Source: Antedon mediterranea (lineage: Eukaryota; Animalia; Echinodermata). Taken from it: 64,000 bases of DNA. The first letter of the stretch is position 1; every line of letters starts with the position of its first letter. The notes beneath the pieces are model-generated. The model was not told the origin of the DNA. It did no database searches and worked only from the letters and a program-made list of their open reading frames with translations. Below are positions 20,944-46,023 of this stretch, one piece after another. Where the stretch lies: positions 18,989,365 to 19,053,364 of the forward strand of contig NC_092678.1 of assembly GCF_964355755.1 (NCBI RefSeq), read 5' to 3'. Position numbers and translations under genes: made by a program.

Positions 20944-23059
20944 TCAAACTGAAATATAACGCAGGAGGCTTATAGCAATTATAAGCAGAATTGATAAAGT
21001 ATGTTTGACTGTACCGTTAGTTGAGTGAGGTTTTTTATTTTCTGCAGTCGTAGTATTTCTATCGTGAATAACAGCCTTGACCGATATGTTAAAAGTTGTT
21101 GACCCATGACTGTTCTTAGCAGTACACGTATACACGCCAAAGTCGCTCTCGTGTTCAATGTAGATGACTACAAGTACTTCGTTGGTGTTAATATTGTACG
21201 TTCCAACTCGCAGCTCCCCGTCAGGTCCCATTATGGAAACAAACGGATGAGGGCTTCCTTGTATTTCCAGTTGAAGTAAAAAACTTTCTCCTTGTGGAAC
21301 TTGAAATTCTTGACTCGTGGATGCAATTTTTGGCGGTGAACATTTTTCAACTGGGTTATGACAAGCTGGATCCAAACCAATTATCTGTTGTTCGCTTCCT
21401 AATCTCTGTAGCAGATCAACCATGTTACAATCGCAAATTAAAGGGTTTTCGCGGATGTCAATATTAAAATTGGTGGAAGCAGTCTCTAGTATTAAACTTG
21501 GAAATGTTGTCAGTTCGTTTCCAAACAGATCAAGAAATTTTAAATGTTTTAAAGCGCCATCTGATGTGTTAGTCATAAAAACCATATGTGAAATAACATT
21601 ATTGGTTAGATACAACTTTTCCAATAAAGGGACACGTTTGAAGATTCGCTCGTCCAACTTTTCAATTGCGTTGCCGGCCAGTCCAATTTCTTTCATGTTA
21701 TCAAGTCCGTTGAAAATGTCTTCATTCATGTTTTTAATTTGGTTGAAACTAAGATCTAGGCTGGTCATAGACGGGTTGCTCAATGCGCCCCCTTCAATGG
21801 CGCGCAACCCTATTAGACCAGTCAAATGGGCTATATATTTGTCAACGTCTGTGGACCAGGACCTTTTGGATGCACTGATAGAAAAAGCATTGATACGCAA
21901 CATAAGAAGATTACTAAGTCCTTTAAAGGATTCTCTTTCAATGCCACCAACAGACCCTATGAAAAAAAAAAATGTTATGAGTATTTTTTATACCAGTTAA
22001 TTATACTTTTCTTGAGCTCTGTCTACACTATCCAACTAATTTAACAAAAAAGGTGTGGTGTTCTCAAATATGGTAGTGATATGACATCATCCTGTCCATA
22101 TATGGGCATAAAGTTTGATATACAGTAGTACAGACAGAGCTTTACATTGATTCATGATATTAAAGTGACTCAATATTGTCACAAAACATGAACAAGGTCG
22201 GACCTTATTTGTGTAGTTTTCAAAACAAATTTTCCTTTGGTAAAACCAAGGCAATCTAACAACAGGACATATTGAGCTCGCCTTTACTAAGATAGAAACT
22301 GTTAACAGTGCTTTGATCTTATGTCTGGCTGCGACAAATACCAACACTACTGTACTATGTACATATTCTCTGTGGCATACAGGCATGGAACTGATCGTAC
22401 TGTATGTCAGATAAATCCAAAGTAACCAGTCATTTGTATAATCGGTTATATTATAACCTTTGCCAAGAATGTTAAAAAATGACATCTTTTTTTGTATTTC
22501 TTTTTTTTTTATCTAGCAAGATTATTTCCAATCTAATGAGCGGATTTTCACCAAATGTTCACAGCAGGCCTTAGTTCAAAGAAGGTATGTAATTACAGTA
22601 TGTGACCTACGTGCAATTGTCTAAAATTATGCTTGGAGGAATACAAATGTGTTTATAATATAATAAACAATTTTTTTTCTTAACTTAAACAAAAATTAAA
22701 CAATATGATAGTGTATGGAATAGAGTCATTGAAGTTGAAGTCATTTAGAAATATCAAAATATACAAATTGATATAGGGAAATAAACATTATACTTACCGG
22801 AGATACCTAAGAATGTAATATCACCATAATCTGCAAATGTATCTTTTTGTATAGTATCAAACAAACTTCCTAAAAACACCATGTCGGTCGTGCTTGGATC
22901 ACATGGATTACGATTTGGAAAACAGTCAAGATCAGAGCATTCGCATCGTGTACCAAACGTCTTACAATTGGTTGTTTTTATGGTATTATTACACTGTTTC
23001 GCATGACTTAACGTTGCTATACCCAACAACAGTGACATCACGTAATAGTACATGATCAT
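20944..23059 (-). CDS. Secreted, probably GPI-anchored LRR + Ig (I-set) cell-surface protein, ~424 aa
   Basis: Exons 23059-22798 (signal peptide, Cys-rich N-cap) and 21956-20944 are joined in phase 1. LRRs: LDLSFNQI, IGLAGNAI, LYLTNNVI, LDLFGNEL. LRRCT: NPLICDC. Ig: DFGVYTCTAKNSHG. The C-terminus is hydrophobic with no cytoplasmic tail. Confidence 0.88.
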
Positions 23060-24445: not shown

Positions 24446-26291
24446 ACTATATCACTACCATATTAGGTACATCACACTATTTTTGTCAAAATACTGATAG
24501 TTTATAGGTGTAGCTTTAAGTTACACTTTCTATGCTTGATTTAAATTGCGCAATGCAATAAAAAGTTAGTGCATGCACTGTATTTTTCTGTATAATAAAA
24601 CCAAATCTTAATAAGCCTTTTATGGATTCATTCAGTACTAATAAGTAACGGAACGTGCATAATTATTACACAAAGTTACAATATAGTCTATAGAGAAACA
24701 ACAATTTTTATTTTAGGCCTGGAAATGCCTGAAATATAGTGTATTATCAACATTTCACGATCTTGCTGAGTAAAGAAATTTTGACTAGACTTAATACTAG
24801 GCCTATCAGATCTAGGAAACTCTTCAGTTCAAGTACATTTATTTGAATAAAACATTTCCACCATTTAAAAAATACCTATTTAGTATATACAGTACTTAGT
24901 TTGATTTGATATAGATTCCCTCAACACCCCTATTTTAAAACGTATTGCACATTTTATTGATAACAGCTAGTGGGCTCCTGTCATAAAGTTAGGGTGATTA
25001 GCTAGGCCTATGATGAGCAATGATGCTCCAACAACCAGGGAGACGTCTACACACATCATTGCGTGACATGCGACTGACTTCAAGTCATCAAATCAGCTGT
25101 TGCGGCCTAGTAAGTGACTGAGTGAATTTTGCTACGCTTATTAGTTTAGAGAGAGACTATTATACACAATAAACTGCATATCATTGCACCATGCTTATTA
25201 GTAAGTCTACACCTACCTCTTTAGATCTACAAATAACGGTAAATTAAACTTCCGTTGATTTTACTGATGATGTTTCCTTCAAGGACAAGAAGTTATGATT
25301 AAACATTGGAATTTACCGTGTTGATATTTTGATTCTTGCTGAGGTGACGCTTCAGTCGTGACCATTATTGATTTAATATTATTTATACTTAATTTAAATG
25401 ACAATAGACATATCTTTTTGAATAACAAAAGGAACTTAAAAAAAAACATAAACATATTTTGCGAGTAAGAGTTTGGTTCATTTAGGTTAAGTTATGTTAA
25501 AAAATAATATTCTAAAAATGATCTACATGCAAAGGGTTTTATCTTTACCCTTATTACAGTGGAAGAATCCGGCGCGTGTACACAGGTGGACCAGTCATGT
25601 GAATTGTCATGTGGATAACGGGATTTTCCCGCGGTACTTAAAAAAATAAAAGGTGTTTTCCAATCAGAGTGTTCACCCACAGGACCAGTGGGAATGATAA
25701 CAAATCCTTTTAATATCGTTTTTTGTTGTTTTTTTGGCGCATTGTTTGAGTAACGTATATTAATTATTGTTAAAATGTTTTTGCTTATCTACCACGCCCA
25801 TAATTGTTTCGTGAACCATATGAGTTAAATTATATAACATTATTATGTAACATATAACTCAATCATATAAATTGTACTAGGCCCAAGAACCACTGATCAC
25901 TTTTTCAGTTGATACGGAAATAAGTTTACTTTTTATTTGTCGACTTAATGGGTTATCCTGGTATTCTTTTTAATATGTACATTGTATATTTTAACTATTT
26001 TTATGAATATCGAATAAAATCAATCAAACATTAGTCTTTAAAATAATATAATACAGTAAATTTGTGACGTCAGTGCAGGAGGAGCCTTGTTGTTCAGTCA
26101 ACCGTGACGACATCAACAAAAATTACGTGGCGCCAAAGTTTTCATTTTTCTCTCTCGCATGACATTGTCAAAATTTAAAAAGTGATGTATCCTGCTTTTA
26201 GTTAGCATACGAACGGCTTAAAGATAGTTTTCCTAATTAATACTCTCTGAAGGTATTTTAGAGTTAAGATTAATCGTTGTTGTTATTAGTA

Positions 26292-26735
26292 TGTAGGCCT
26301 AGCTAGGCCCTAGTCTAGTTAGGCTAGCTAGGCTATAAATGCCTACTACTCTAGGCCCTAGCTAGGCCTAGCTAGGCTAGCCTAAGGTCTAGGCTAGTAG
26401 TAGTACTAGTAGAGTAAAGAGGGCTAGCCTTGGCCTAAGCCTACTAAAACTATAGTATAGTATAAGCCTACCTCCTAGGGCCTACCTAGGCCCTATCCCT
26501 CTAGTAGGCCAGCTAGCTAGGGTTAGGAGGGCCAAAAGCTCAGACTAGTAGTATACGTAGTAGGACTAGGTAGGCTAGCTTCTGTTCTGGGCTTATTAGA
26601 GCGGCTAGGCCTGCTGCCAAGCTACAGTAGCCTAGCCTACTTTGGTGGTAGTTAGCTATGGCTATGCCTAGAAGTAGCCTAGATATATAGAGAGGCTACT
26701 ACTATATACTAGGCCTACTGCTTTAGCCTAGCCAG
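26292..26735. promoter_or_regulatory. TAGGCCTA/CTAG-dense tract upstream of the THNSL1 coding start (likely first intron)
   Basis: Dozens of AGGCCT, TAGGCTA and GCTAGC words. The tract follows a CpG-containing segment (26060-26250) and a candidate donor gaag/gtattt at ~26252. Confidence 0.5.
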
Positions 26736-27169
26736 GCATTCCATAAATCATTTGGCCAAATTGAAAGGCGATCAATATTCATTACTCATTGTGAACTTGA
26801 ACTGATTAGAAAGTTAAAAATATTATATTATAGTACTTGCACCGTCTGTTCTAGGCCTATAGGCATCAGTAGTGACAGTTCAGGTCTCCAATGTTCAAAG
26901 GAAGACTTCTTAAAAAGTTATCTTGGTAGGAAAAAGGACAATTTAAACCAAACCTTATTTATGTCAGAATGAAAATTAAGTTTAATAATATTAATAACGT
27001 TTTTATTTCTTCAATTTACATAATTTTTACTCATGCAAATGGTTCAACAGTTACAATTTAATGCTAATTTTATTTGCTTCTATTCAATAATTGTATTATC
27101 AGTTTCGTATAGATTTCCAGCTCTTATTACATAATTTTTCTTGAATGTTTAAGTAATCATCCGGTCAAA

Positions 27170-30100
27170 ATGTGGGTGTCCATACTGTCCATCCAACGTA
27201 CCTTGAGCATGAGGCCGCAGGCCCAATGGATGTCAAAAGTCCAGATGTCAAAATCATGGATAGCAAGGGCCAAATGCTTTTCAACCAGCACATTCTATTA
27301 CAAGGTAAGGCGATTGAAGACCTTGTCAGGCCTAGATGTGAACTATATTTAATACCAATAGAAAAATAGTTGATGTCTTGGATAGAAGTAGGCCTACTGT
27401 AGATGAATTTAACTCACACATTGCCATATTATATCAAATAAAGAAAGACTTACAAGGACAAGTAGACACTAACACAATAACAAACCATCCTGCCATAAAC
27501 AGAAAAAAATGGAAACAAATTGTGGAAAGCGTAATGTCGGAAGACGGAAAACGTTAACAACATTGCCATATTAGTTACCGTTGAATTGCTATAAAATGGT
27601 TTAAATTATTGATAGATGAATTTGCATAGGTGGTTTTAAGGGGGCCCCACAGCCAGTTGGTGACCCCTTAAATTACAATGATAAAGATAGGACATTAGGT
27701 TAAGTTTAGCACTTAATTTCACAAATTTCAAGGTTAGATTTGAACCCAGAAACTTCTTTATATAAAAGGCATACTACCATTAGACTGGTGCTTTCATGGT
27801 ATGGTTCAAATTCATGTATAAAATATAATGAATAATTGAGACTTTTTTTTAAATAATTTTTTTCACAATGTTTTACCTTTTCTTTGCTCAGAATGAAGGG
27901 AACATTATCCTGATGGGGAGTCCCGGATCAGGAAAGACCACTCATGGCAGAAAACTGTCTAAAAGACTTGGTATGCCTGTACTGGACGTTGATGATCATC
28001 ATCTGGAACCACTCTGGCAGATGAAAGTGTCCGAAAAGGTTAGTATTTAGAGTGTGTTGATAATTACATGTTACAATGTCATGTCAGTGCTGCTAATTCA
28101 GGTGCTCTCTCTCCTGTCCACGACAGTAGTTATATGTGAACTAGTCGACCAGGAAATCCCTGTTACACTCGTTTTGAAAGATGCTGTACGTAGGTTATCT
28201 GAGAAGAAAAAATGAATCGAGTGAGCCTCAAACCCTTGCCAATATTATGGCTATGGATTACAGCTCCACTGTCTTTGACATTCCATTCAAGATGGAAGCA
28301 GCTTAGTCATTCCATCAAATATTCTTGATTTTCATTATTGTCTTTAATAGTATTGTATATAAAAATAAAGTATTAAATGAATCTAAATAAAATTAAAATG
28401 TAATATAAAATATTCTTTTATTCCAGCTTAATGAAGTTGGGGCAGAAAAATTTCTAGAAGCTGAAGGAGAAGCTCTTTTGCAGCTAAAAGCTTCAAACAC
28501 AATCATTTCATTGACTGGTTCCAATCCACTGCATAACAAAGCAATGCAGTATATTTCGGAGTCTGGAGTCGTCGTCTTCATTGATGCAAATAGCGACGAC
28601 ATTATTTCACGCCTGGAAGCCATGAAGGTGGACAGAATTGTTGGACAAGGTTCTGGAATGACAATGAAAGAAATCTTAACATATCGACAGCAATTTTACG
28701 AGGACAACTACGATGTTAGAGTGACTTGTGAAAAAGAAGAGTCTTTTGAAAGCATCGGGGAGAAGATTTCTGAAGCAGTTAGAAGATTCCAGAATAAATC
28801 CGGATATGTATCGACAAGGTCACAGGTTCTTGGTGAGAGTTCAGCAGATTTTAATCAAGTTGTTTTACAGGGTCTTGCGCAGGATGGAGGGCTTTATGTT
28901 CCAGAACACCCATTGCCATCAATGACAATAAAACAGTGGGACAGACTAGTGGAGATGACATATGAGGAGAGAGCTCTTCGAATCTTAGAACTTCTTTTAC
29001 ATCCGTCCGATCTTCATCCAAGACTGCTGAAAAATATGATCAACACGGCATATTCCATTGAAAATTTCAACTGTAAGGTCGTTGCTCCAGTTGTTCCTCT
29101 GGAGAACAACCAGTATATTCTGGAGCTATTCCATGGGCCTTCAGCTTCCTTTAAAGATGGTGCTCTCCAGCTGATGCCTCAGTTCTTTTCAAATGCATCG
29201 GAAAGGGACTTTCCAAATACAAGGTGGGGAATGAGTCAGAGTATAATACAATCTTACATACACACAGCACTTTGAAAATGTAAAGCTCTGTCTACACCAT
29301 TAAACTATTTTGACAAAATAATTTTTTTGTCACATAAAGTTTGATAGTGTAGGCAGAGCTTTAAATAACTTACAATAATGCTTACCTATTGTAATCTTTA
29401 TTCACAGGCATCTAATACTGGTTGCAACATCAGGTGATACAGGTAGTGCCGTACTTGATGGATTCAGCAAATACGCAGGTATTCTTAACAGTATGCAAAT
29501 AAACCAATGCAAATTGATACTTCATTTGCATAATAGTTTCAAGAATATGTATACCATTATTAATTAAATCTAAATTTATTGTTTCAATATTTGAAGTAAT
29601 TAAACAAGTTTTCTATTTTTTAAGATAAAAATACATCTGTCGTTGTGTTGTATCCCGAGAGAGGTGTAAGCGCTGTACAAAAAGCACTCATGACATCCGC
29701 TACAGGAGAAAACATCAAAGTCATTGGTATGTGCACAACTAAAAATTAAACTTTATGTCAATTAATTATTAGTGGCCAAGCATTTATATATTATCAATGT
29801 ATTGAAACGTATCATATCTAAAGATGTTAGTTTTCACAAATTCCGAAGGCATGAACTAATGTATATTTCTATTGACTATAATCTAATCAGAAAAATGCAA
29901 ATTTATCAGGAAACAATTAAATGGAATGGTCCAAAAACACAATGCTGGTTTTATGTCATTGCTTTTTTCTCCAGGAATCAACAGTGATTTTGATTTCTGC
30001 CAGTCTGCCATAAAGAGAATCTTCAGTGACACTGCCCTCAAAGAGGAACTACTTTTAAATCACAACTTGAAGCTAAGTGCTGCAAACTCCATCAATTGGG

Positions 30101-33100
30101 GGCGCTTACTTCCGCAAGTTGTCTACCATGCCTCAGGATATCTGACAATGGTACAACAAGGAATTATTGGCATTGGAGATCCTGTTGATGTTTGTATTCC
30201 AACCGGAAATTTTGGGAACATTCTTGGAGCGATTTATTCAAAGGTAAATTAATAATTTTAGTTGTAGAACGCTAGTTTACAAAGTCAATTATCAGTACAG
30301 GTACTGTTTTACAATTTGCCTAGTACTGTATTGAGCAGTCTGTGATACAGAATACTATGTGCATCACATGTGATACATGTATTATTGGAACAATGTCACA
30401 TGTGATGCTGTATTTAACCTAACCTTAGAAACAGTTAATAATACATAATTTACTAGTTACGCTGTATCAAGACATTTGTCTATGATGATAGACAAAAAAT
30501 GTTGTCATTTGTTGAGAATGCATTACTGAGAATCGAGTGATGATCAATCGACAAGAACACTTTGTATTATGTGTCATTGGTATCTTCATACAGATATAAT
30601 ATCTTGTCATTCATACAATTTCCATGCTCTCTTTATTTTTAGCAAATGGGAATTCCTTTTCGGCGATTTGTTTGCACCTCTAACAAGAATAACGTGCTGA
30701 GTGAATTCTTCAACACAGGCATGTACGATTTAAGACAGAAGAAGCTTAGTGTGACAACCTCTCCAGCTATTGACATTCTGAAATCTTCAAATCTTGAAAG
30801 GTATTTAGCTTTAACTTATTAAACTGATTGATTTATTAATGAATGAATGAATTGATTCATCCTGCTAAACTGATTGATTCATGAATTGATTGATTTTTGG
30901 ATTGATTGATCGATGGAAGAATGAATTGTTTGGTGGATTGATTGATTAATGTATCCATTGACAAGGGCAAATCTAAAGCAGAGTCCACAGGGTCCCTTAA
31001 ATTTGACGGGTGCCCTTTTTTACACAGCGGCATAGACAAAAATATAAATTTCCCATAATGTGAGAGTCAATCCTCGGCGATACTTTCGGTTATAAATAGA
31101 AATTTTCGGTGGCCGATCAGGAGCAGCATAAAGGATAGTAGACATTGCGTCTCAAGATGCCTCATAAGAGGAGGGGCATAGAAAATATAAACAAAAAAGA
31201 TTTGGCACAAGCCAAACATGACTCGTGATCATCATCTATTACTGGCTTGTCGACGTCTTGGAGCTCGTGTTGGTCTAAACATTAAAAATAGAATGCAGTA
31301 TTTTCTTCAATTCCGAATAACGGGTCTCCATATTCTGACCAATATCGATCTGTACAAGTAGCAGTTGTGAGGTCTAGGGAGACTGGGAGAGGGGTAGAGC
31401 AAAAAAAAAATTGGCTTAGTGATATACTGTAATATAGATTTCAAATTGTTAACAGTATAGGAAATCGGTGGTAAGGTTTAAATGAAAATTCAAATGAATG
31501 AAAAGTTATATTGTACCTTTCCTCTGATCTTTCTCTACCGTATCCATGTAGGCTGATTCAGGTGGCTGCTGGGCTTCAGTTGTCAGGTTGTGAACGGTGA
31601 CAAGATTTTCTGCCACTAACTTGGATAAAACATCTCCAACTATACGCGTTGCCACCTCGTCAAGCTCCTCATCAGAGATGGAGGCTTCGGTTGGCTGCTG
31701 TGCTTTAGTTGTCAGGTTGTTATGAACGATGGCAAGATGTTCTGCCACTACCTTGGATAAAACATCTCCAAAAACATGTGTTGCCAGCTCGTCAAGCTCC
31801 TTATCCTCATCAGAGATGGAGGCTTCAGTTGGCTACTGTGCTGCAGTTGTCAGGTTGTTATGAATGATGGCAATATTTTCTACCAATACCTTGGATAAAA
31901 AATCTTCAACAACACTTGTTGCCAGATTGTCAAGCTCATCATCATCATCAAAGGTGGATGCTTCAGTTGTCTGCTGTGCCTCAGTTTCCTTGTCTATGGA
32001 GAAATTTTTTTGGATAATTTTTATAATTACTTTGATATATAACAAATTAATCCAAATATAAATGTGAACAAGAATCTTACTAAGTATAAAACAAAAGATG
32101 AACGATTTATTGGTGGGTGTTGGGGAGAGGTTGTCTTCAAGTACACACATTCCACCTTAAAACTATAGGTAGGCCTATAAATTGGCTTAGGCATGATGAT
32201 AGTGTATGTTCTTACGGTCATTGTTCATGACTTGATTTATTGCTTGACATTTTGCAACTGCGGTTGCTAGTATACCTTGAACGAAGTTAGCTGCAAACTG
32301 TTTTAATTGCACATCCTCATCATGGGTGCGGTTGACTGTAGCTGCTATGACACCTTAAACGAAGGTAGCTGCAAACTCATTTAGTTGCACATCCTCATCG
32401 GTGCTTTTGACTGCATTTGCTATGATACCTTGAACGAAAGAAGCTGCAAACTGTTTTAGTTGCACATCCTCATCATGGGTGCGCTTAACTGCAGTTGCTA
32501 TGACACCTTGAACGAAGGTAGCTGCAAACTGTTTTAGTTGCACATCCTCATCATGGCTGCGCTTGACTGCAGTTGCTCTGACACCTTGAAAGATGGTTGC
32601 TGCACGTTGTTTCAGTTGCACATCCTCATCATGGGTGCGCTTGACTGCAGTTGCTAGGAACTGTTTTAGTTGCACATCCTCATCGGTGCTTTTGACTGCA
32701 TTTGCTATGACACCTTGAACGAAAGAAGCTGCAAACTGTTTTAGTTGCACATCCTCATCATGGGTGCGCTTAACTGCAGTTGCTATGACACCTTGAACGA
32801 AAGTGGCTGCAAACTGTTTTAGTTGCACATCCTCATCATGGCTGCGCTTGACTGCAGTTGCTCTGACACCTTGAACGATGGTTGCTGCACGTTGTTTCAG
32901 TTGCACATCCTCATCATAGGTGCACTTGACTGCAGTTGCTAGGAACTGTTTTAGTTGCACATCCTCATCATTGGTGCTCTTGACTGCATTTGCTATAACA
33001 CCTTGAACGAAAGTAGCTGCAAACTGTTTTAGTTGCACATCCCCATCATGGGTGTGCTGGACTGCATTTGCTCTGACACCTTAAACGATGGTAGCTGCAC

Positions 33101-36100
33101 GTTGTTTCAGTTGCACATCCTCATCATGGCTGTGCTTGACTGCATTTGCTCTGACACCTTGAACGAAGTTAGCTGCAAACTGTTTTAGTTGCACATCCTC
33201 ATCACGGGTGCGGTTGACTGTAGTTGCTATGACACCTTAAACGAAGGTAGCTGCAAACTCATTTAGTTGCACATCCTCATCGGTGCTCTTGACAGCATTT
33301 GCTATGACACCTTGAACGAAAGAAGCTGCAAACTGTTTTAGTTGCACATCCCCATCATGGGTGTGCTTGAATGCATTTGCTCTGACACCTTGAACGATGG
33401 TAGCTGCACGTTGTTTCAGTTGCACATCCTCATCATGGGTGTGCTTGACTGCATTTGCTCTGACACCTTGAACGAAGTTAGCTGCAAACTGTTTTAGTTG
33501 CACATCCTCATCATGGGTGCGGTTGACTGTAGTTGCTATGACACCTTAAACGAAGGTAGCTGCAAACTCATTTAGTTGCACATCCTCATCGGTGCTCTTG
33601 TCTGCATTTGCTCGGACACCTTGAACGAAAGAAGCTGCAAACTGTTTTAGTTGCACATCCTCATCATGGGTGCGCTTTACTGCATTTGCTCTGACACTTT
33701 GAACGAAGTTAGCTGCAAACTGTTTTAGTTACACATCCTCATCATGGGTGCGGTTGACTGTAGTTGCTATGACACCTTAAACGAAGGTAGCTGCAAACTC
33801 ATTTAGTTGCACATCCTCATCGGTGCTCTTGACTGCATTTGCTATGACACCTTGAACGAAAGAAGCTGCAAATTGTTTTAGTTGCACATCCTCATCATGG
33901 GTGCGCTTTACTGCAGTTGCTATGACACCTTGAACGAAAGTAGCTGCAAACTGTTTTAGTTGCACACTGTTTTAGTTGCACATCCCCATCATGAGTTTGC
34001 TTGACTGAATTTGCTCTGACACCTTGAACGATGGTAGATGCACGTTGTTTCAGTTGCACATCCTCATCAAGGGTGCGCTTGACTGCAGTTGCTAGGACAC
34101 CTTGAACGAAGGTAGCTGCAAACTGTTTTAGTTGCACATCCCCATCATGGGTGTGCTTGACTGAATTTGCTCTGACACCTTGAACGATGGTAGATGCACG
34201 TTGTTTCAGTTGCACATCCTCATCAAGGGTGCGCTTGACTGCAGTTGCTAGGACACCTTGAACGAAGGTAGCTGCAAACTGTTTTAGTTGCACATCCCCA
34301 TCATGGGTGTGCTCGACTGCATTTGCTCTGACACCTTGAACGATGGTAGCTGCACGTTTCAGTTGCACATCCTCATCATGGGTGCGCTTGACTGCAGTTC
34401 CTAGTACACCTTGAACGATTGTAGCTGCACGTTGTTTCAGTTGCACATCCTCATCATGGGTGTGCTTGACTGCATTTGCTCTGACACCTTGAACGAAAGA
34501 AGCTGCAAACTGTTTTAGTTGCACATCCTCATCATGGGTGCGCTTTACTGCAGTTGCTATGACACCTTGAACGAAAGTAGCTGCAAACTGTTTTAGTTGC
34601 ACATCCCCATCATGGGTGTGCTTGACTGAATTTGCTCTGACACCTTGAACGATAGTAGATGCACGTTGTTTCAGTTGCACATCCTCATCATGGGTGCGCT
34701 TGACTGCAATTGCTAGGACACCTTGAACGAAGGTAGCTGCAAACTGTTTTAGTTGCACATCCCCATCATGGGTGTGCTCGACTGCATTTGCTCTGACACC
34801 TTGAACGATGGTAGCTGCACGTTGTTTCAGTTGCCCATCCTCATCATGGGTGCGCTTGACTGCAGTTCCTATTACACCTTGAACGATTGTAGCTGCACGT
34901 TGTTTCAGTTGCACATCCTCATCATGGGTGTGCTTGACTGCATTTGCTCTGACACCTTGGACGAAGTTAGCTGCAAACTGTTTTAGTTGCACATCCTCAT
35001 CATGGGTGCGCTTGACTGCAGTTGCTAGGACACCTTGAACGAAGGTAGCTGCACACTGTTCCAGTTGCACATCGTCAGCATGGGTGCTCTTGACTGCAAG
35101 TTGCAAGTTGTCTGGTAGGTGGACGTATCTGGTATTAGTGTCAATCGCAGATGTTTTGCGCTTGTTGGTTGTAATGAGTCATTCTGGGAGGACTTTATGC
35201 TATTCAATGATATATCATTCTTCCTGCCAGTTGAAGTGAGTGAGTTACCTACAACTGTTGTTGCTATGGAAGTTACGAACTGTTTTAAAGGGGGTTTTAG
35301 TTCCACATCATGCACATCCTCATCGCAGAACCTCTTTGCTGCAAGTTGCGATGTCTGATACTGATAGGTGGACATATCTGGTTTTAGTGTTGATCGTAGA
35401 TGTTTTTGCGGTTTTTGGATGTAGGCCTATAAGTCATTCAGACTTCAGAGAGGACTTTATGCTTTCATTCTTCCTGCCAGGAGTGAGTGAGTTGCCTGGT
35501 ATAAAATAAAAGTAGATTTCAAATTGTTTTATTTATATTTTTATGTGATGATATGCCAGTTTTTCAAAGAAAATTTCTGTTAATGTCAGTTTAATGGACA
35601 AATAAAGATACTATGACTATGAAATAAATAGCTTACCAATATACATACAAAAAAAAGTGTCAAAAAAAAATAGTAAATGATCAGCTATTATGCAATGCTT
35701 GCCTACCTGCAGCAGGTGAAGATGATTGAACTTCCAGCAGCTGGAAGTTCAAATATATCACGTGTATCACGACCACTTTTTTTATTGACGTAAATAAACG
35801 CCCAACTTTTAACCAACAGAAGAAAGATTAAAGGATTTTCCACCAATAGCATTGTGTGTGATTTAAAACAGGCCACGCCCAGTAATTCATTGTTTGCATA
35901 CGCCACCCGCCGTGACAGCTCTCTCCTACTGAGGAGGGTCATCCGCTTCGCGCGCCTTGTTGGTTACGCACATGCGCGCTCGATACCGAGTCATCGACAG
36001 TGATTTGTAATAGCCGCTGAACTAGCAATTTGATAAATGAATGATGGATATATTAATCATAATTAGATTGGTTGATGTATTGATAGATGTATTGATAGAT

Positions 36101-37244
36101 AGATATTGATTGAATGATTGATTGATTGATTTGGCTTATTGGCCAATATGCTGAGTGTCATTGAGTTGATGTTTATTTTATACTATTTATTTGCATACAA
36201 TGATATTGACAAGCTTAGCCCCATTTACTAGGGTAAATAACTGTATAGACACTGCCAGTCCTGTCCTCATAATTAGATCGTCCCCCACCCCACCCAACAA
36301 AAAACTATTAATTTTAGCCAAAAATGTAACTTTAATGCAAGTAATTTAATATTACTTTTTGTGTAAGGTATTTATATATGATAACCAATAAGGACAGTAA
36401 AGAGGTTAGACGTTGCTTTGATGAACTTTCGAACAATAAATTCTTCCAAGTTTCACAAGAGGTTGTAGAGCGGATGCAAAGAGACACCGTTGCTGATTGG
36501 TGTTCAGAGGAATTGTGCTCAAAGACGATCCATGCTGTCTTTAAGAGAACAGGTAAAGGTCAATTTACACAGCAGACGAGTGGTAACGGTAAGCAGAAAA
36601 CCACGTACCTTGTGTACCACGTGGAGTCTGCATCTATCCTGAGCGGAAACCGCCCGTCCACTCCCCCGTTGTGTGTAAATGGTCACACAGAATAATAACA
36701 TAGATTCTATATTTTGATTACCGTTACCGCTCGTCTGTGTAAATTTGCCTTAAAGAGAGATAAACAAAAATTGTATTTTTTATTATTACTATTACATATC
36801 AATATTAATTGTAATATTATTGTATAGATTCACTACTAGACTTGTTCAAACCTGTTATTATTAAGTATTGTTAATATTATTAGGCATATATTCATTTCTT
36901 ATTATTACCATTTATTTTTTTCTCTAGGTTATTTATTGGACCCGCACACAGCGGTGGCTAAGGCGGTTGCAGACAGGTTCCATGATGAATCTGTTCCTAT
37001 GGTAATTTGTTCAACTGCACATTATGGGAAATTCGCTTCAGATGTACTGACCGCGCTAGAGGGGTCAGTTGATGCAGATGACCCTGTGACACTCTTTCGA
37101 CAGTTGAAAGACTTCAACCCATATCCCATGATGCACCTTGAACTGGAAGAGTCCATTCGTAGACCAAAAATGCATACACAAGTTTTATCTGCTAATGTAA
37201 ACGAAATAATTTCTGAACTGAAACATTTTATTAAAATGATGTAA
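27170..37244 (+). CDS. THNSL1: Threonine synthase-like 1 (shikimate-kinase-like P-loop domain plus PLP-dependent threonine synthase fold), ~726 aa
   Basis: Exons 27170-27304 (basic, acid-free transit-peptide-like leader), 27892-28038 (GSPGSGKTT), 28427-29223 (ISLTGSNP, YVSTR, GLAQDGGLYVP, LELFHGPSASFKD with the PLP lysine), 29408-29478 (ATSGDTGSA), 29625-29726, 29975-30243 (SAANSINWGRLLPQVVYH, PTGNFGN), 30643-30800 (SPAIDILKSSNLER), 36368-36552 and 36928-37244 (DPHTAVA, STAHYGKF). Phases are consistent. Confidence 0.95.
29284..29360. mobile_element. Short MITE, family B (TIR AGCTCTGTCTACAC); other copies at ~22015-22121 and 56862-57003
   Basis: taa|agctctgtctacac ... gtgtaggcagagct|tta. TWA flanks are typical of PIF/Harbinger. 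Confidence 0.7.
31282..35790 (-). pseudogene. Nested antisense spliced gene (disabled, or of uncertain coding status) encoding tandem amphipathic-helix repeats, inside THNSL1 intron 7
   Basis: Candidate exons ~35790-35707, 35495-32216, 31993-31517 and 31373-31282 have canonical splice sites; the last two junctions are both phase 1 and keep the frame. In-frame stops (CAA>TAA, CAG>TAG) and frameshifts interrupt the ORF. Confidence 0.7.
32250..35097 (-). repeat. Coding-type tandem repeat, ~37 units of 78 bp (75-bp and 54-bp variants)
   Basis: The unit translates as THDEDVQLKQ(F/R)AA(T/S/N)(F/I)VQGV(I/L/R)A(T/N)AVK(R/H). Length variants are almost all multiples of 3. Confidence 0.95.
36557..36750. 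mobile_element. PIF/Harbinger-like MITE, family C, with TAA target duplication
   Basis: TAA|aggtcaatttacacag..acgagtggtaacggtaa ... ttaccgttaccgctcgtctgtgtaaatttgcct|TAA. A partial relative lies at ~6400-6595. Confidence 0.8.
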
Positions 37245-38358
37245 ATTATGTTTTCCATTCAATAGGCGAATCTCTTTATGCTAATCAAATATTACAGTGC
37301 TCTGATTGGTTGGCCTTTTTTGGCATTGCAAAACGTAGATGTAAATGTGAATGCATTTACCAATTTTTTGATTAGTGTAGCACGAATAAACTTGTGTAGT
37401 GGAAAACCTAGCTAAGATATGCTAAAAAAAGTGTACATGTTTTAATATTAAAGATGACGTAACTGAAACATGGGCTTACCTTATGGTTTAAAATGCTAGT
37501 GTAATAACTATTTTATTCTAAAACAGGGTATTTAGACATTGTCTTAGGCATATATAATATTATATATATAAAACAGCTTTATTTACTAAAAGTTCAACAC
37601 GTTACACCAGTTAGTTAGTTTATTAAAAACATTCCAATTTCTACATAAATTGTATTTGTAGCTACGTTAACACGGAGGTTGCATTACGTCATGCGTTATG
37701 TTTTTCGATAATACATAGGCCCTACGTCCGGAATGAGTTAATAGAGTTTGGAAAAAACACACGTATACGCTTTCTTAGGTTGTCCAAACTGCCTATTGTA
37801 AACGGTTCTTTTGTTAACAATACCTCACAGGTTTTTTTATCCGGCCACCGTACCCGAATCCAGGCTCGTTTAAAAGTAATTTATTAAGATAAGATATTAA
37901 ATATCTCTATGGTTTTATATACAAGGAAAGTGCTCCGGGCGTATGGTAGCGGTATAAAACAGATTCTATAAACAATACAATTCAAATATATAGTATCAAA
38001 TGACTAAAATAATTTGTTTTATTTGTTGTAATTATAAAAACGGTTATTTATGAATATATAAACATTTACATTAAATAATAATTCAATTATTGCCTATAAA
38101 AAGGTATTAAATTTTATTTTTCATTTTAAGCAAATCTGATTATATTATTTAAGTTCTCTAAATACACAACATAATTACATTTATAATTGGCTATGTGCTA
38201 GTCATGGCCTAATAATCATCTGAGTTAAAAATATGTGTGTACTCGGCACAAATTACAAACGTTTTTTTTTTTTTACGTTCTCTATGAGCTCGTAGCAATA
38301 ATATAACTTGAATAATAATAATAAGTTTCATATTTGAAATCTGATTTCTTGTAATTAT

Positions 38359-39918
38359 TCATTTATTATATTTTTCTGGTTCGTTATTTATTCCTGTTAA
38401 CTCGACGTCTGTTATTGTAAGCCTACTTGAGCGATTTTCGGCGTCTGGTATTGAAGGTCTACTTGAGCGATTTTCTCTGTATATTAAGAAGACTAGTGTT
38501 ACTATAAGTAAAAAAAAACCAAGAGACAATGCAATGGCCAAAGATGATTTCTTCTTAAATTCGATTGATTCAAGAATTATTTGATTCTTAGATGTGCTGG
38601 TGCTTTTTGTCAGAGCTTCTGGTGTTGGCTCATTTATGAAAGTACTTTCTAGACTAATAGCTCTTGTTGTCTTTGATTCTATGTACTCATCATTGTCTGT
38701 GGTTAATATTGAATAGTCCGAATGCATATTGGATAGATTCCTAGTAGTTTTACCGAATGTGGTCTCTGGTGCTGTATTTCCTAGAATCGATTCTGTTGTC
38801 AATGGTGCAGTAACTGATGGCACGGTCGAAAGACTTCCGGTAGTCGTCCGTTGTACAACATCGTCCGTGGTAAACTTTGACGAAGCTGAAGGCACGTTGG
38901 GTAAACCTCTGGTAGTTTCAGCGACTGTTTTCTCCGGTGTAGTCTGCTGTACCTCTGTGGACAAAATTGACGAAGTTGAAGGAACGTTGGATAAATCTCT
39001 TGTAGTTTCAGCGACTGTTGTCTCCGATGTAGTCTGATGTAACTCCGTGGTCAATATTGACGAAACTGAAGGCATAGCATCGTGCAGAAGCCTAGTAGGA
39101 CTATTTGCTTCAGCTATAAATGTAGTAATTGGTGAAAATGTTGATTCTGTTATTGTCGATTGCGTTGTTGTTTGAGACGTTATAGTACAAGTCTTTACAT
39201 CAAAATTTTTTCCCAAGTTGCTGTTGATTTTGCATTGGAAAGTTGCTTCTAAATCTTCTTGTTGAAGAACAAAATCATACACAATTGAAAATTCCTCAAA
39301 TCTCTTCTCTCTATTGTATTCTTCGACATGACTAGCAATAATATTATCATTTTTCAAAAATTTAATCCGTGTAGCCAATATAGAATTGCCCGTTGATGTA
39401 CAGGTAAGTCTAGTGGATTTTCCGATAGCGTCTTCATGGTAATTGGTTGAACTACAAAGTGGGTATGGAGGTGGCGGAGTATAGAAAACTTTTAGTTCGA
39501 TGTAATGGTTGGTTTCATATAACACCTCATGAGAAGATGCATTTATAACTTTACATTTATATCCATTCTCGTGGAGAAGTTGTCCAAACCCATTGGCAGT
39601 CGATAATCTCAGTTCAAATTTAAGCTTGTTAATTGAATATGCCAGTGCTTCTTGACCAAGGTCAGAGGTCAAAAGCGTTCCATTTCTGTAAATCTCTGTT
39701 ACATTTCCAGTAATTGCGCTTCTTCTGTACCAACTGACATAGCTATCGTTTCTGGGTGGAGAATTTGTACATGAAAAGTGTACAATATTACCTTCAATAG
39801 CCAATATATCAGTCGATTGATTTCCAATCAAAGGTATGATGGTAGATTGGATTGTAGTTGGCATAACTAGCAAAATAATCGACAGCAAGATTTGTATTTT
39901 AATTCCAAACATTGTCAT
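38359..39918 (-). CDS. Single-exon type I membrane protein: signal peptide, two Ig-like domains, Ser/Thr mucin stalk, TM, short tail (519 aa)
   Basis: Ig1: VHFSC..VSWYR..GYKCKV. Ig2: RLTCTS..ATFQCKI. The Thr-rich stalk has ~31-aa repeats. TM: LAIALSLGFFLLIVTLVFLIY. Confidence 0.88.
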   Translation of the reverse strand: MTMFGIKIQILLSIILLVMPTTIQSTIIPLIGNQSTDILAIEGNIVHFSCTNSPPRNDSYVSWYRRSAITGNVTEIYRNGTLLTSDLGQEALAYSINKLKFELRLSTANGFGQLLHENGYKCKVINASSHEVLYETNHYIELKVFYTPPPPYPLCSSTNYHEDAIGKSTRLTCTSTGNSILATRIKFLKNDNIIASHVEEYNREKRFEEFSIVYDFVLQQEDLEATFQCKINSNLGKNFDVKTCTITSQTTTQSTITESTFSPITTFIAEANSPTRLLHDAMPSVSSILTTELHQTTSETTVAETTRDLSNVPSTSSILSTEVQQTTPEKTVAETTRGLPNVPSASSKFTTDDVVQRTTTGSLSTVPSVTAPLTTESILGNTAPETTFGKTTRNLSNMHSDYSILTTDNDEYIESKTTRAISLESTFINEPTPEALTKSTSTSKNQIILESIEFKKKSSLAIALSLGFFLLIVTLVFLIYRENRSSRPSIPDAENRSSRLTITDVELTGINNEPEKYNK

Positions 39919-40859
39919 AATATTGTAGTTCTGAGTTTAACCTTACCCAAACAAACTTAACTGATAATAGTACTTACAAATCAGTCTTAGTTTGTCAAAG
40001 ATAACTTTTGCTTTTGATCAGTATTTTATGAAAGCGGCGAGTCTGTCAATTCTTTGTTGGTAAGAAATATCTGTGAGGTAAAGTATAAGAACAGAGGCCT
40101 ATTATTAAAACATTTTTTTTCTTCAGATTAATTGAATAACAAGTATAACGTTACTCTAAACAAAACAGGATTTCCCCGGAAAGGACCAGGTGAGAAATTG
40201 AGGGTTTCTAAAGCTTTCATTGCATCGTCAATAGATTGCTAAACAAAATTTTTAAAAATTAAAAGAAAAGAAAGAATCTATACCGTTACTTACTACTTTG
40301 TAATGCTTTTATAGTTTTGTATCCTCACTCGAAATTACATCAATATCTGACTACCTTCTGCTGTCTCTTGTATTTATACTGTCTCTCGTATATAACAGGT
40401 TGGTGAACTCTGGCGCCACACAGGAAGTTGTTTAGGTTTGACAAGTCATAAAACAAACTACAGTATATCATTCTGAGTAAACGCTGTGTTACGTAATGTA
40501 ACTGATGTAACGGTTTCAGCATTTTAGAAAACAGTATATTGTACAGTTCCTACCTATTCTATATGTTTATTTCTTGTAATTTTGTATTTTTAGGTGTCAG
40601 TTCAATGGTATTGTAGTTACTGTAGTTGAATTGTTTTGACATGTTGACCTACGTCGACTTTTTATTGTAATTGTTATTTTCTATATCATGTTTTTTTTTG
40701 TATATTTCTCTTGGATGGATGCACCTTCCATTTGGTCGAGTGCCACTGTTGTAAAAGTGTAATCTCCAAATAAATTATTATTATTATAGTGTCGAATTTC
40801 TGTTATGAGTATACAGTACTTGCCTTTACGACGCCTGAGGGAATAGACACTTGTGGAAC

Positions 40860-41330
40860 AGAGATTGGAATGTTCCATTCATTTCAAATCAATACATTTG
40901 CATAAACGTATATTAAATCTATCAAAATAATGTTTTTTAAAGAAAATCGGCCTGTCTTCAATATTATGATACTGTACTCGAGCTGTTCAACCGGTTTTCA
41001 TCTATTCAAAACAATTATCGTAGGAGGAGATAGGAAAATGCGAGGCCTCCTCGCATTTTTGTGGCAGGTATTTTTCAAGATGGACATCCATTAGACAGTG
41101 TATACCACGATCGGAAAACACCCTATTTGGGGCAAATCGTTGAACCTAAATTCGTTTTAATCGTCAATAACTAATTATCTAACTTAATTTAATTAGTAAA
41201 CAGGGTTACATCAGGTGGTTAAACCAGTACCGAAAGTACGAACCAACTTTATATACCATCGAGTAAAAATTCTAAAAGTAAGGCGCGATTTACCGAATTT
41301 TGCATGCCCTTACGTAAATTTATATATAGA
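40860..41330 (-). mobile_element. Second Helitron copy (5' ~470 bp), fused head-to-tail to the first
   Basis: Close direct repeat of 42180-42647. It starts TCTATATATA immediately after the CTAG of the first unit. Confidence 0.72.
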
Positions 41331-42647
41331 CTAGATGGTACGCTCGCTTCGCTCGCGTACCATCTAGGTCGTGCCCACAGATGGTTCTCGAATACACAGT
41401 AATTTCAGCGTAACAAAACTGGCGATTTCAAATGTACGTACCGCAGGACTATATTATACATTGTCGTTTACAGAAACGAATAAATAGACACGATGATTTA
41501 TGTAGTCAACTAAAATTAGCACCCTGGGAATTACTTCCGAAGGAGAAACTTATCACAAAATCAAGTTTTTGATTTGGACTCATTTAAAGAAACCCAATTT
41601 GTGTTTTGTATGTAACATTAGGGTTGAGGGATGGGAAAGCGGATAGGTACAAAGAGGAACAATTTTTAAATATTATTATTCTTTATCCACTCAGTAACGA
41701 AATATTTTTTTCATGTTTTATAGGCCTATAAATAATATACCTCTAAATACAGTAAAACATTTGCGATTTAATACTTTTTTTATTTTATTTATTTATTTAT
41801 TTCTTTTAAATATTCATTTTACACTAATTTTCCCCGTGTATGGCAAGAGATTCCTAATTATATTAGAAAACATTCTTTATTTAGTTTAGTTAAAACTGTC
41901 ACTGTCATAATCGATTGAAATATTAAAGTACCATGTCACGATACACAACTACGACGTTTATATTTGGTAATTATTAATTAATACAAACGTTGAGAAAGAA
42001 CTGTCAGTATAAAGTTTATTTGTATATAATAATGTGTTTATATATCTAACAGTAGAGCCTATCCACAATGTCGCAAGTTTATTCTCAAAGGGCCCATATA
42101 TTTACCTACCGTATGTGTTAAACCAAGGGCTCATAAATTTACCTACAGTACTTGTGTTAAACCAAACTCTGGCAGACTGAGAGATTGGGATGTTCCATTC
42201 ATCGCAAATCAATAGATTTGTATATCGTATATTAAATCTATCAAAATAGTATTTTTTAAAGAAAATCGGCCTGTCTTCAACATTATGATGGTGTACTCTA
42301 GCTGTTCAACCGGTTTTCAGCCATTAAAAACAATTATCGTAGGAGGAGATAGGAAAATGCGAAGCCTCCTCGCATTTTTGTGGCGGGTATTTTTCAAGAC
42401 GGACATCCATTAGACAGTGTATACCACGATCGGAAAACACCCCTATTTGGGGCAAATCGTTGAACCTAAATTCGTTTTAATCGTCAATAACTAATTATCT
42501 AACTTAATTTAATTAGTAAACAGGGTTACATCAGGTGGTTAAAATCAGTACCGAAAGTACGAACCAACTTTATATACCATCGAGTACAAATTCGAAAAGT
42601 AAGCCGCGATTTACCGAATTTTGCCCTTACGTAAATTTATATATAGA
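41331..42647 (-). mobile_element. Non-autonomous Helitron (complete unit)
   Basis: The minus strand begins A|TCTATATATAAATTTACG and ends in a GC-containing palindrome and CTAG. There is no TIR or TSD. Confidence 0.75.
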
Positions 42648-43030: not shown

Positions 43031-43453
43031 TCATAATTCTACTGTTATTGATCTCTTTCTCTTGTACAGTAAGAATAGTATTGCGAGTACAAGTAAACCA
43101 AACACAACTGCACCAACTGACAATCCAATGACTAACGATGTATTCAAAGTTTCTTCTTCTGATTTGATAGTGACTGTGGAAGTGTCCAACGTGGTCATGC
43201 TGGTTGTAAGAATCTCTTGTGTTGGCTCTTTCCTGGCAGTAATCTCTCCACTAGTAGTAGCTATTGTTGTCTTTTGTACTGTAGTTCTTTCGTCTGTTGT
43301 CAATAATGAAGAGTCTAATTCGGTAACAACCACGGTAGTTACACCGGTTACGGTCAATGTCTCTAACGTTGTCTGGTGTTCAGGAAGTTGGCATTGAGAT
43401 GTAGCGATTAGCAAACCAAACAACATCAGGTTGGCAAGATTAATTCGCAACAT
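43031..43453 (-). CDS. Small mucin-like single-pass membrane glycoprotein (~140 aa)
   Basis: ATG at 43453 opens a signal peptide (MLRINLANLMLFGLLIATSQC), followed by a Thr-rich ectodomain, a TM (LVIGLSVGAVVFGLLVLAILFLLY) and the tail KRKRSITVEL. Candidate 5'UTR donor gtaagta at ~43917. Confidence 0.75.
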   Translation of the reverse strand: MLRINLANLMLFGLLIATSQCQLPEHQTTLETLTVTGVTTVVVTELDSSLLTTDERTTVQKTTIATTSGEITARKEPTQEILTTSMTTLDTSTVTIKSEEETLNTSLVIGLSVGAVVFGLLVLAILFLLYKRKRSITVEL

Positions 43454-46023
43454 AATTAAAGTTATTATTTTTTTTTGTATATGCCTTTCGTCCTTAAATC
43501 TTGTATCAAACGTCAAATTATTACACAAGTTTGATCTCTCTGTCTTTGAAGTAATTGATCCTGTTGACTATAAAATCTGTGTAGTAGAAAAAGTAATATT
43601 ACAATTTTCAAAAACAAAAACGAGTTTTTGTAATTCAGCCGTGTGGCTCAGTAGTATAGACTTCAGATTGTGGACTTGAAGACCCGCGTTCGAAACACAT
43701 AGAATATTTGTTGATACCGAGAGAGATTATTTAGATGGTTAGGTTCAATTATATTTATAAAATAGGTCGGCTAATTATTTTACGTAACGTAACGTTAGGC
43801 TAATGTATTACTCATGATTTCTACCTGAACCAGATAACAAAAATGGTGCCGTAACATCGTTATAGTTTAATATTCTTAGATGCTATTGATATTTAAAATA
43901 AATACAAACATACTTACTTTTCTATGACTTTGGATTTGTTTTACTTTTGACATCCAACTTTGTAATTTCCAAACACGGGAATGAAGTAAATTTTTCAACT
44001 GCATTCGATTTATACAATGCTGTGGTCAAATAAATCCTGGTAAACGTGCATGTTAAAAAATTAAAATGATATTATTTGTGATGTCATTGTCAGTGAAGTA
44101 GACAAACGCATCATCACACATTGCAATACGTCATGGACACCGGTGGTGTACCGTAATTTTTACCGGTGACTTTGTCGTATCTAACAACATCAATGTATTG
44201 TATTGTGTACAACTACGTTAACTTCTGATCTACAATGTTGTAATCCGGGTTGTTGGTTTTATAGAGGAAGTCTTCGAGATTAAATTAGGAAGTATAGCAA
44301 ACTAGTCGATTCTTTTTGGTAATCACTCCCCATGATTAAACAAAATAACATGATGACAATAATTGAAACCTATAAAATGCAAAAAAATAAACACAATATG
44401 TCACAATGTGTTGCTGAAAAGTTTGCGGTAGGCCTACACCACGATATGTATAAGTAGGCCTAGATCAGGCTGAATAGAACATTTGCCTTTCTTGACGTTT
44501 CGATCAGTAGAATTCAAACGTCTCAGGAATGAGAATTGAAAAATATAGATCGAAAGACGTCGAGAATCTCAATAGTTTATTTCAGAAATACATACGTAGT
44601 ATACCGCAAACAATAATACAAGATTTTTTTTTATTTCTTATTTGCATTCAGAGACATCTTTCATTTTTAGATTTTAATTAAAATCGTATCTAAAATTTTA
44701 AATGAAAACAAATATGGTTAATAGTGAATTCAAGTAGGCCTATCTTATTATGTAAATTTTAACTTACTATTTTAACTACTTTAAACACTTACTTTAATTG
44801 TCACAAATGTATTTATATGTTGGAAGAATTTCATCTGGTTGTGGAATAGGTATTACATACAATTTTTTATTTTTTTATTTATATGTATACAATAATATTC
44901 ATCACTGAGAATTTAAAATAAACGTGAGATGAACTCACACAAGACAAAAAAAAAAAGACACGTAGCACCACCTATTTAAGTAATGGTTCTGCTTTACCGC
45001 TGTCGAAAATAAGCGGGGTTATATTTTATAACATACAGTTAAAACCGGAGCTATACTCTTTAATGTTAAATTGTCTGCTATGTCTCGAGTGAAACATCCG
45101 ATATTTTTGGCAGTCATTTGGCTAGGACTATGTCTGCGTTTATTTGTCTTAATAGCCGTCAATTGTCTGAATTGATGTTCTTGATGAATACATTAAAAGT
45201 CGTTTGCATTCAATTGCTTCTATCAGAAACTGTAAGACACATGAGCTTAATAAGATAATTACCTAGATGACAAAATCTCTTTAGATTTAGCAATATTTAA
45301 TAACTTGTTTTTCAATTAGCATAACAAAAAATTATCCACAAAGGCCTAATTAGCAATCTGATTATTATTGCCTACGCCAAGGCAATCAAATGAAATAATT
45401 AAACTTAATTGAGTCCATTTACAAATCGCAAAATGTACAATACTGGACACACTCAATTAGCTTGATGATAAATAAATTTAGTTTTTTGGTCCTGGCATAA
45501 AATTGCTAATGCCTAAAAGATAGAAATTTTACTGACATAGGCCTAACTGTACTGTGTTATTCTAAAGGCCAGTGTCATTGCTGCAATGGCTTGCTTTTTA
45601 GTAAATTATAATATGAAGATAAAATAGTTGTTTATTTTTTGTCTTATGTGGGTTCATCCCACCTTTATTTCCATCATTTACATTTTCATATTAATATAGT
45701 AATTTATAAATACTTGTTCTAACATTGTCTTTTTGTTATCTGATTTTTGTTGTAATCTTGTCTCTATCTATTATCCTATTTACCATAATTTTCTCTTATA
45801 ATGTATACATATCATCTTTTAATGTATTTCTCATTAAAAACATATTAGTTCATATACATATTTTCTACTTATTTTCTTTTCTGTATACATAAATTATCAT
45901 TTAACATCATTGTTTAATAATATATTTATTAACTTAGACTATTTTTAAAAATCTTTTTAACAATTTCATATTTTTAAATATAAGAAAAAGAAGTAGAATG
46001 AGTTTTACTGTAGTTGTTTAGGT

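What the first reader, a model, noticed from the sequence alone, without database searches (positions are those of the whole stretch)
31517..35097. Hidden antisense gene built from ~40 tandem AKAP-like docking helices
Seen: the 26-aa unit contains LKQFAATFVQGVIANAV, and a separate exon has three ~42-aa units such as EELDEVATRIVGDVLSKL. Two different repeat families therefore share one hydrophobic spacing, each preceded by an acidic patch. Established: PKA-RII-binding helices of AKAPs follow roughly [AVLISE]xx[AVLIF][AVLI]xx[AVLI][AVLIF]xx[AVLISE]. AATFVQGVIANA and ATRIVGDVLSKL fit this at every position. Many units carry R at position 9 (GVRANA), which should break the face, so intact and broken units are interspersed. 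Inference: a polyvalent scaffold or sponge for PKA-R or other D/D-domain dimers (ROPN1/SPA17/DPY30-type), possibly in sperm or cilia. I know no AKAP with this valency. The consensus is degenerate, so a generic amphipathic or lipid-binding helix is a real alternative.
Basis: partly seen in the sequence, partly recalled or inferred. Interest (0 to 1): 0.85.

Follow-up and report, generated by a model that had tools for sequence, protein, structure and literature searches.

The report
Dead gene copy with helix minisatellite
The repeats are real, but they lie in a broken copy of a feather-star gene inside another gene's intron, so a 40-site kinase anchor is likely never made; predicted sister genes carry 5-8 similar helices that may anchor protein kinase A, which is untested.

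Summary
Observation largely confirmed; interpretation mostly not. The minus strand of a threonine-synthase-like gene's intron holds 37 tandem 78-nt units and three 132-138-nt units with an AKAP-like hydrophobic spacing. The frame is broken: 6 of 37 units carry stops, one has a 16-nt frameshift, the second exon has a stop, two frameshifts lie upstream and a family exon is missing. Only 15 of 37 units are stop-free and fit the consensus. Selection among units is not significant (dN/dS 0.62, p 0.08). No spliced antisense contig was seen in one RNA-like run, a weak blank. The only relatives found are five Antedon mediterranea gene models, in which these units occur singly in disordered acidic modules (5-8 helices in the three long models). 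DNA contigs from the window's organism show such single-unit copies skipping the array. The two unit types align in register, so they are likely one family, not two independent matches. Best reading: a pseudogenic partial duplicate whose single helix unit expanded as a minisatellite.

The parts
27893..37244 (+). Host gene, threonine synthase-like 1 type (shikimate-kinase-like plus threonine synthase domains); start approximate; the finding lies in its intron ~30801-36364
   Evidence: Pfam SKI, Thr_synth_N and THR4_C; one contig of run X1 joins 28581-29221, 29974-30241, 36365-36550 and 36926-37548 across the introns
35707..35745 (-). Remnant of an upstream exon (SSSPAA) ending at a GT donor; likely spliced to 35495 in the ancestor
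   Evidence: SSSPAA and NSLTPG match P0004 residues 60-72 on either side of the gap; donor seen; weak, and the rest of P0004's N-terminus does not align
32216..35495 (-). Large exon X of the broken copy: linker modules plus the array, AG acceptor and GT donor, three frameshifts
   Evidence: splice sites; colinear with P0001/P0002; frames
35098..35495 (-). Two ~249-nt linker modules with one degenerate helix unit; frameshifts near 35420-35440 and 35100
   Evidence: repeat D9, spacing 249; tblastn; translations
32238..35097 (-). Minisatellite of 37 'A' units (78 nt; variants of 75, 54 and 94 nt). 15 are stop-free and consensus-matching (12 of them begin FA), 15 have R in the face (2 of these also have stops), 6 have stops in all, 1 is frameshifted and 2 are truncated
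31517..31993 (-). Exon Y: three 'B' units (46, 46, 44 aa) with an in-frame stop at 31833-31835
   Evidence: a DNA contig 31509-32303 has no difference from the window
31294..31373 (-). 5' part of exon Z (DLTT...YGDPLFG); the following family exon (the SDYDWIDMGP module) was not found in the window
   Evidence: tblastn to P0001/P0002; acceptor; no window hit for that module at E 0.01
31200..31274 (-). Remnant of the family's last exon (DQHELQDVD), after an AG acceptor; diverges from the paralogues soon after; lower end approximate
   Evidence: translation; acceptor; same motif near the C-termini of P0001, P0002, P0003 and P0005

Best explanation
The window holds a broken partial copy of a multi-copy Antedon-type gene, lying antisense in an intron of a threonine-synthase-like gene, in which one 78-nt helix-coding unit has expanded to 37 tandem copies and likely makes no protein. 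Shown: repeats, stops, frameshifts, a missing family exon, colinear single-unit relatives. Inferred: the array grew by unequal crossover or slippage, at least partly after the frame was lost, because one stop-bearing subtype was itself copied four times. Inferred and untested: the parent proteins are acidic, likely disordered chains with 5-8 short amphipathic helices, each of which would dock one PKA regulatory-subunit (or other D/D-domain) dimer, making a modestly polyvalent anchor. I put about 0.85 on the pseudogene reading and about 0.4 on D/D docking as the parent function.
For: Stops in 6 of 37 units, a frameshift, and a stop in exon Y. The exon-Y stop lies under a difference-free DNA contig, 31509-32303. 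A contig from a second study (X1, 33183-33334, 1 other letter in 152) spans the stop at 33237-39, and no difference is listed there, so assembly error is unlikely. Array variants are 16 synonymous and 31 non-synonymous (ratio 0.62, p 0.084); B units have pN about equal to or above pS in 3 of 3 pairs. The five related models have no tandem A array. A DNA contig joins 32225 to 35015, skipping 2789 nt, at depth 894 against 22-46 for the locus itself; its inserted letters read AKCQAIEQDEN, as in P0001 (translated by eye). A similar single-unit contig is present in X1. No array-like protein was found among 1.84 billion representatives. For the parent function: face positions 2, 5, 6, 9, 10, 13 and 14 are hydrophobic in 78-100% of 9 distinct helices, while positions 4, 7, 8 and 16 are polar in all 9. 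These are the face positions that PMC12083921 names for AKAP helices. D+E is 18%, and the single-sequence fold has no confident core.
Against: The point estimate of dN/dS is below 1. The first 14 units form a stop-free block, and 3 of the 4 kinds of length variant keep the frame, so part of the expansion may predate gene death. Expression was tested in one contig-only run. For the parent function: a profile of 10 window units retrieved no AKAP from 177,635 PDB sequences or from Pfam. Position 17, also listed as a face position in the paper, is not hydrophobic in the window's main A units. The loose consensus occurs 2.9 times per 1000 residues in other window ORFs. The paralogue proteins are automatic, fragmentary gene models with no peptide evidence seen.
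Confidence: 0.72

Rival explanations
1. One reading: the locus expresses a highly polyvalent D/D-docking scaffold or sponge, at least from the stop-free 14-unit block (7 intact helices alternating with 7 R-broken ones), through an unseen start or splice form or an intact allele.
For: 427-codon stop-free stretch; strict intact/R alternation in the first 14 units; 12 intact units begin with FA, the RI-selective motif of PMC12083921, whereas the paralogues have R, Q or L there; dN/dS point estimate 0.62.
Against: No Met in the open block, and a frameshift directly upstream. Stops recur in copied subtypes. Exon Y has a stop and a family exon is missing. No array protein was found in the databases. 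A 156-nt dimer period explains the alternation without function.
Confidence: 0.07
2. The window copy is dead as above, but the parent helices are generic amphipathic or short-linear-motif helices (lipid-surface binding, self-association, or another partner), not D/D ligands.
For: The consensus is degenerate. A and B units are likely homologous, so the AKAP-like match is one event. No AKAP was retrieved by profile. No [RK][RK]x[ST] PKA site occurs in any of the 5 models.
Against: Isolated ~18-residue helices in long acidic linkers with acidic flanks and paired hydrophobic positions at 5/6, 9/10 and 13/14 suit a docking motif. The 18-residue hydrophobic moments are modest (0.10-0.39), which is not typical of strong lipid-binding helices (general knowledge).
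Confidence: 0.4
3. The whole family is a decayed or mobile repeat (a segmental-duplication cluster or transposon cargo), and the RefSeq models are over-predictions with no functional protein.
For: Hits come only from one species, each on a contig of the same listed length, 26,055,566 nt. The models are fragmentary: P0004 reads into an intron-like tail, and P0001, P0002, P0003 and P0005 begin inside modules. There is no homologue elsewhere.
Against: 699-815-aa stop-free multi-exon models exist. The face pattern is kept across A and B units that are only 19-35% identical. Paralogue-type contigs occur in the RNA-like run. No viral relative was found.
Confidence: 0.15

Closest known systems
Dual-helix AKAPs SKIP/SPHKAP and AKAP220 (AKAP11)
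   Same: More than one amphipathic helix per chain with the 2/5/6/9/10/13/14 face; described as sequestering multiple PKA holoenzymes (PMC12083921, Results and Discussion read)
   Different: The paper describes these as vertebrate and dual-helix. The Antedon models carry up to 8 candidate helices, show no detectable sequence homology to them, and have no binding data. The window copy is broken.
AKAP18 alpha/beta (AKAP7) and smAKAP
   Same: Short helix in a small unstructured protein. AKAP18 alpha is membrane-targeted by N-terminal Gly/Cys lipidation (PMC2174236, passages); model P0004 begins with a Cys-Cys plus basic stretch. The unit resembles the AKAP18 helix from recall only.
   Different: No significant Pfam AKAP hit (SmAKAP E 0.37-0.44, far below its cut-off; none). 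P0004 has no Gly at position 2, and its N-terminus is not found in the window copy.
FSIP2 (fibrous sheath-interacting protein 2)
   Same: Repeat-rich protein tied to AKAP scaffolds (PMC11276731, passages); an unchecked scan note reports about 13 AKAP-like helices in an FSIP2-family gene
   Different: No FSIP2 Pfam hit for the window ORFs or paralogues. [quoted passage not shown]
Nested pseudogene with an exon-derived minisatellite (VNTR)
   Same: Antisense intronic partial duplicate that keeps its introns, with stops and frameshifts propagated by tandem copying and no significant selection; the class is general knowledge
   Different: The repeated unit happens to be a motif-sized helix exon segment

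Membership tests
AKAP (window copy) | Encodes an intact protein | tested here: not met
   6 stops in the array, 1 in exon Y, 3 frameshifts, no Met in the open block
AKAP (window copy and paralogues) | 14-18-residue amphipathic helix with hydrophobic face at 2, 5, 6, 9, 10, 13, 14 (and 17) | tested here: met
   15 of 37 array units; 78-100% of 9 distinct paralogue helices at positions 2-14 and 78% at 17. Position 17 is polar in the window's main A units. The pattern is not specific.
AKAP | High-affinity binding to the RI or RII D/D dimer | not testable with these tools
AKAP | Targeting domain that localises the complex | tested here: inconclusive
   Cys-Cys plus basic N-terminus in P0004 only; not alignable to the window beyond SSSPAA
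Type I (RI-selective) AKAP | F/Y-A at helix positions 1-2 | tested here: inconclusive
   12 of 15 intact array units begin FA, but 0 of 9 distinct paralogue helices do
Named AKAP families (AKAP7, smAKAP, AKAP11/SPHKAP) and FSIP2 | Sequence homology or Pfam domain above cut-off | tested here: not met
Pseudogene with minisatellite | Disabling lesions relative to stop-free paralogues | tested here: met
   lesions lie under matching contigs
Pseudogene with minisatellite | Neutral evolution | tested here: inconclusive
   ratio 0.62, p 0.084; pooled pS 0.164, pN 0.124; 34 of 37 units used, leaving out two 54-nt units and one with a 3-nt deletion in the core
Pseudogene with minisatellite | No translated product | tested here: inconclusive
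   No spliced antisense joint in one contig-only run; no array protein in the databases

The most novel reading that the evidence does not exclude
Antedon feather stars have evolved their own expanding family of disordered scaffolds with 5-8 genuine PKA/D-D docking helices per chain, well above the two of AKAP220 and SKIP, and the window records a runaway experiment in which one helix was amplified to dozens of copies, many with an RI-type FA start, before the gene died.
Probability: 0.3. Interest if true: 0.6.

Novelty: new member of a known kind. Interest (0 to 1): 0.3.

Why it matters
As it stands, the window feature is an ordinary broken gene copy with a minisatellite. It warns that long helix-repeat arrays read from raw DNA can be post-mortem expansions. 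If the sister genes' helices do bind D/D dimers, they would be a lineage-specific invertebrate AKAP of unusually high valency. That would give a natural system for testing how the number of anchoring sites shapes cAMP nanodomains or sequesters PKA, and a case of anchoring helices arising and multiplying outside vertebrates.

Tried and rejected
No whole genome is held for this window, so paralogue loci could not be read directly. Homologue searches gave only Antedon mediterranea models: 1 of 7997 candidates, 2 of 7998, 2 of 3508 and 2 among 1.84 billion. The array query was not run at near or shorter lengths. ESM Atlas gave no usable hit for P0003 and nothing above the bar for P0004. PDB sequence searches gave 0 hits for P0003, 1 unrelated hit for P0004 and 1 unrelated hit at E 0.053 for the unit profile. 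The many weak Pfam hits on the array are all below cut-off and were rejected as repeat-summed noise. Single-sequence AlphaFold2 models of P0003 and of the open block have mean pLDDT 40 and 38; they show helices at the units but are uninformative, so no fold search was run. No listed holder run is on record as RNA. Run X1 is a guess, though it splices the host gene. In X1 no joint matched an antisense splice among the 5 joints listed; one window-identical contig (31431-31763) runs unspliced across the 31517 boundary. Contigs give no strand, so this is a weak blank. Read depth over the exons is about 3.5-33 times the locus's own contig (table 3); this comes from one sample and is not a copy number. 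My strict helix pattern (0 hits in 3435 control residues) was written with these units in view, so it is circular and was not counted. Rfam gave 0 matches in 26000-42000; viral contigs gave no relative. Nine literature searches listed no paper whose title or abstract start points to a high-valency AKAP, and none on this family; the library is partial, so absence in print is not shown.
Full report
Setting. The finding lies on the minus strand inside an intron (~30801-36364) of a plus-strand threonine-synthase-like gene. Pfam gives SKI, Thr_synth_N and THR4_C, and one contig of run X1 joins its exons across this intron. No whole genome is held. The organism is inferred to be a feather star, Antedon or close kin, because the only protein relatives are A. 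mediterranea models and contigs from the window's own DNA holders carry letters matching them.

Observation. Tandem Repeats Finder gives a 78-nt array over 32257-35104, with 156-nt and longer higher-order periods, and a 138-nt array at 31557-31986. Splitting on the unit anchor gives 37 units (one search listed 36 because a stricter anchor missed the last one). The same stop-bearing subtype occurs four times, so it was copied after the stop arose (inference). Exon Y (31517-31993) has three units of 46, 46 and 44 aa and an in-frame stop at 31833; only the third unit fits the consensus in register. Two more frameshifts lie upstream, near 35100 and 35420-35440. The longest open stretch (427 codons, 14 units) has no Met. 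The lesions are unlikely to be assembly errors. A DNA contig covers 31509-32303 with no difference, although that sample may be the source of the assembly. A second study's run has 99-100%-identical pieces at 33183-33334 and 34577-34689.

What it is. The array query found one relative, XP_071959966. Cluster look-ups and further searches gave five A. mediterranea models in all, each on a contig of the same listed length, and nothing in any other species. These models are built from modules: linker, a single A unit, B units, a Z exon, a W (SDYDWIDMGP) module and a last exon. The window copy is colinear with them: upstream exon remnant, exon X (32216-35495), exon Y, the start of exon Z and a last-exon remnant, with AG/GT sites at the inner exon borders. 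It lacks the W module. None of the five models has tandem A units. In the organism's DNA, one contig joins 32225 to 35015, skipping the array, at depth 894 against 22-46 for the locus's own contigs, and its extra letters read AKCQAIEQDEN as in P0001 (translated by eye). X1 holds a similar single-unit contig. So the family is multi-copy, the usual state is one A unit per module, and the 37-mer appears to be a local expansion.

Selection and expression. Among 34 of 37 units (three with core indels left out) there are 16 synonymous and 31 non-synonymous variants over 16 and 50 sites: ratio 0.62, binomial p 0.084. B-unit pairs show pN about equal to or above pS. This fits neutrality without excluding earlier constraint; the stop-free 5' block and the mostly in-frame length variants point the same cautious way. 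In X1, none of the 5 listed joints corresponds to an antisense splice, and an identical contig crosses the 31517 boundary unspliced. Contigs carry no strand, so this is weak.

The AKAP question. PMC12083921 (abstract, Results to the FRAP section and most of the Discussion read) defines a 14-18-residue helix with a face at positions 2, 5, 6, 9, 10, 13, 14 and 17, an FA/YA start for RI selectivity, and names AKAP220 and SKIP as the multi-helix class. The three long paralogue models carry 6, 8 and 5 candidate helices. Across 9 distinct helices, positions 2, 5, 6, 9, 10, 13 and 14 are hydrophobic in 78-100%, and positions 4, 7, 8 and 16 in none. The helices were picked with a pattern that already fixes part of this face, so the agreement is partly built in. 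Twelve of the 15 intact array units begin FA, but no paralogue helix does. Against over-reading: the loose consensus hits 10 times in 3435 residues of 12 other window ORFs and in 5.6% of shuffled units. A and B units align in register at 35-43 of 78 nt (shuffles 23-25), so they are likely one ancestral unit and not two independent matches; the shared pattern itself inflates this similarity. A unit profile finds no AKAP in the PDB or Pfam, although such searches are weak for short degenerate motifs. Folds were uninformative. P0004's Cys-Cys/basic N-terminus recalls the lipid-anchored AKAP18 alpha (PMC2174236, passages); this is a lead only. Nothing here points to sperm or cilia. [quoted passage not shown] PMC11506864 and PMC4963476, passages only, added nothing. 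No supplements were opened. Two earlier scan notes describe multi-helix AKAP-like arrays in other genomes; they are unchecked and were not tested here.

Verdict. The ~40-valent scaffold is most likely not a gene product: the locus is a pseudogenic duplicate bearing a minisatellite (about 0.85). The parent family is real at the level of gene models and is a fair candidate for a 5-8-site D/D-docking scaffold (about 0.4), to be settled by peptide binding. Interest 0.3.

Noticed in passing
window 52802-55105 and 51755-52519 (minus): A 767-codon and a 254-codon stop-free, charged ORF with no Pfam hit; the second ends in a CxxC...CxxC-like stretch, possibly the start of a zinc finger (by eye)
   Followed up: partly
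window 634-12845 (plus): Exons with C-type lectin and secretin-family 7TM hits, plus EGF-like and GPS-like exons by eye: likely an adhesion GPCR gene
   Followed up: partly
window 20944-21987 (minus): LRR plus Ig-domain membrane-protein exon
   Followed up: partly
window 38359-39936 and 43031-43567 (minus): Long single-frame ORFs of type-I membrane-protein look: an Ig-like (weak V-set) protein with a Thr-rich 90-nt repeat stalk, and a small mucin-like one
   Followed up: partly
window 46574-47128 (minus): Rhodopsin-family GPCR exon
   Followed up: partly
window 36573-36737: 26-nt inverted arms 113 nt apart with very high contig depth in all four runs: likely a MITE-type element in a host intron
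   Followed up: no
window ~29304-29364: Short stretch with extreme depth and many loose ends in all four runs: a very high-copy interspersed repeat
   Followed up: no
window 50347-51038 and 55932-56311: Other minisatellites (108 nt x 6.4 and 67 nt x 5.7), showing that tandem expansion is not rare in this window
   Followed up: no
window ~35860-35990: GC-rich patch with CG repeats just upstream of the antisense exon remnant, covered in part by a window-identical X1 contig (35743-35922); possibly a remnant promoter
   Followed up: no
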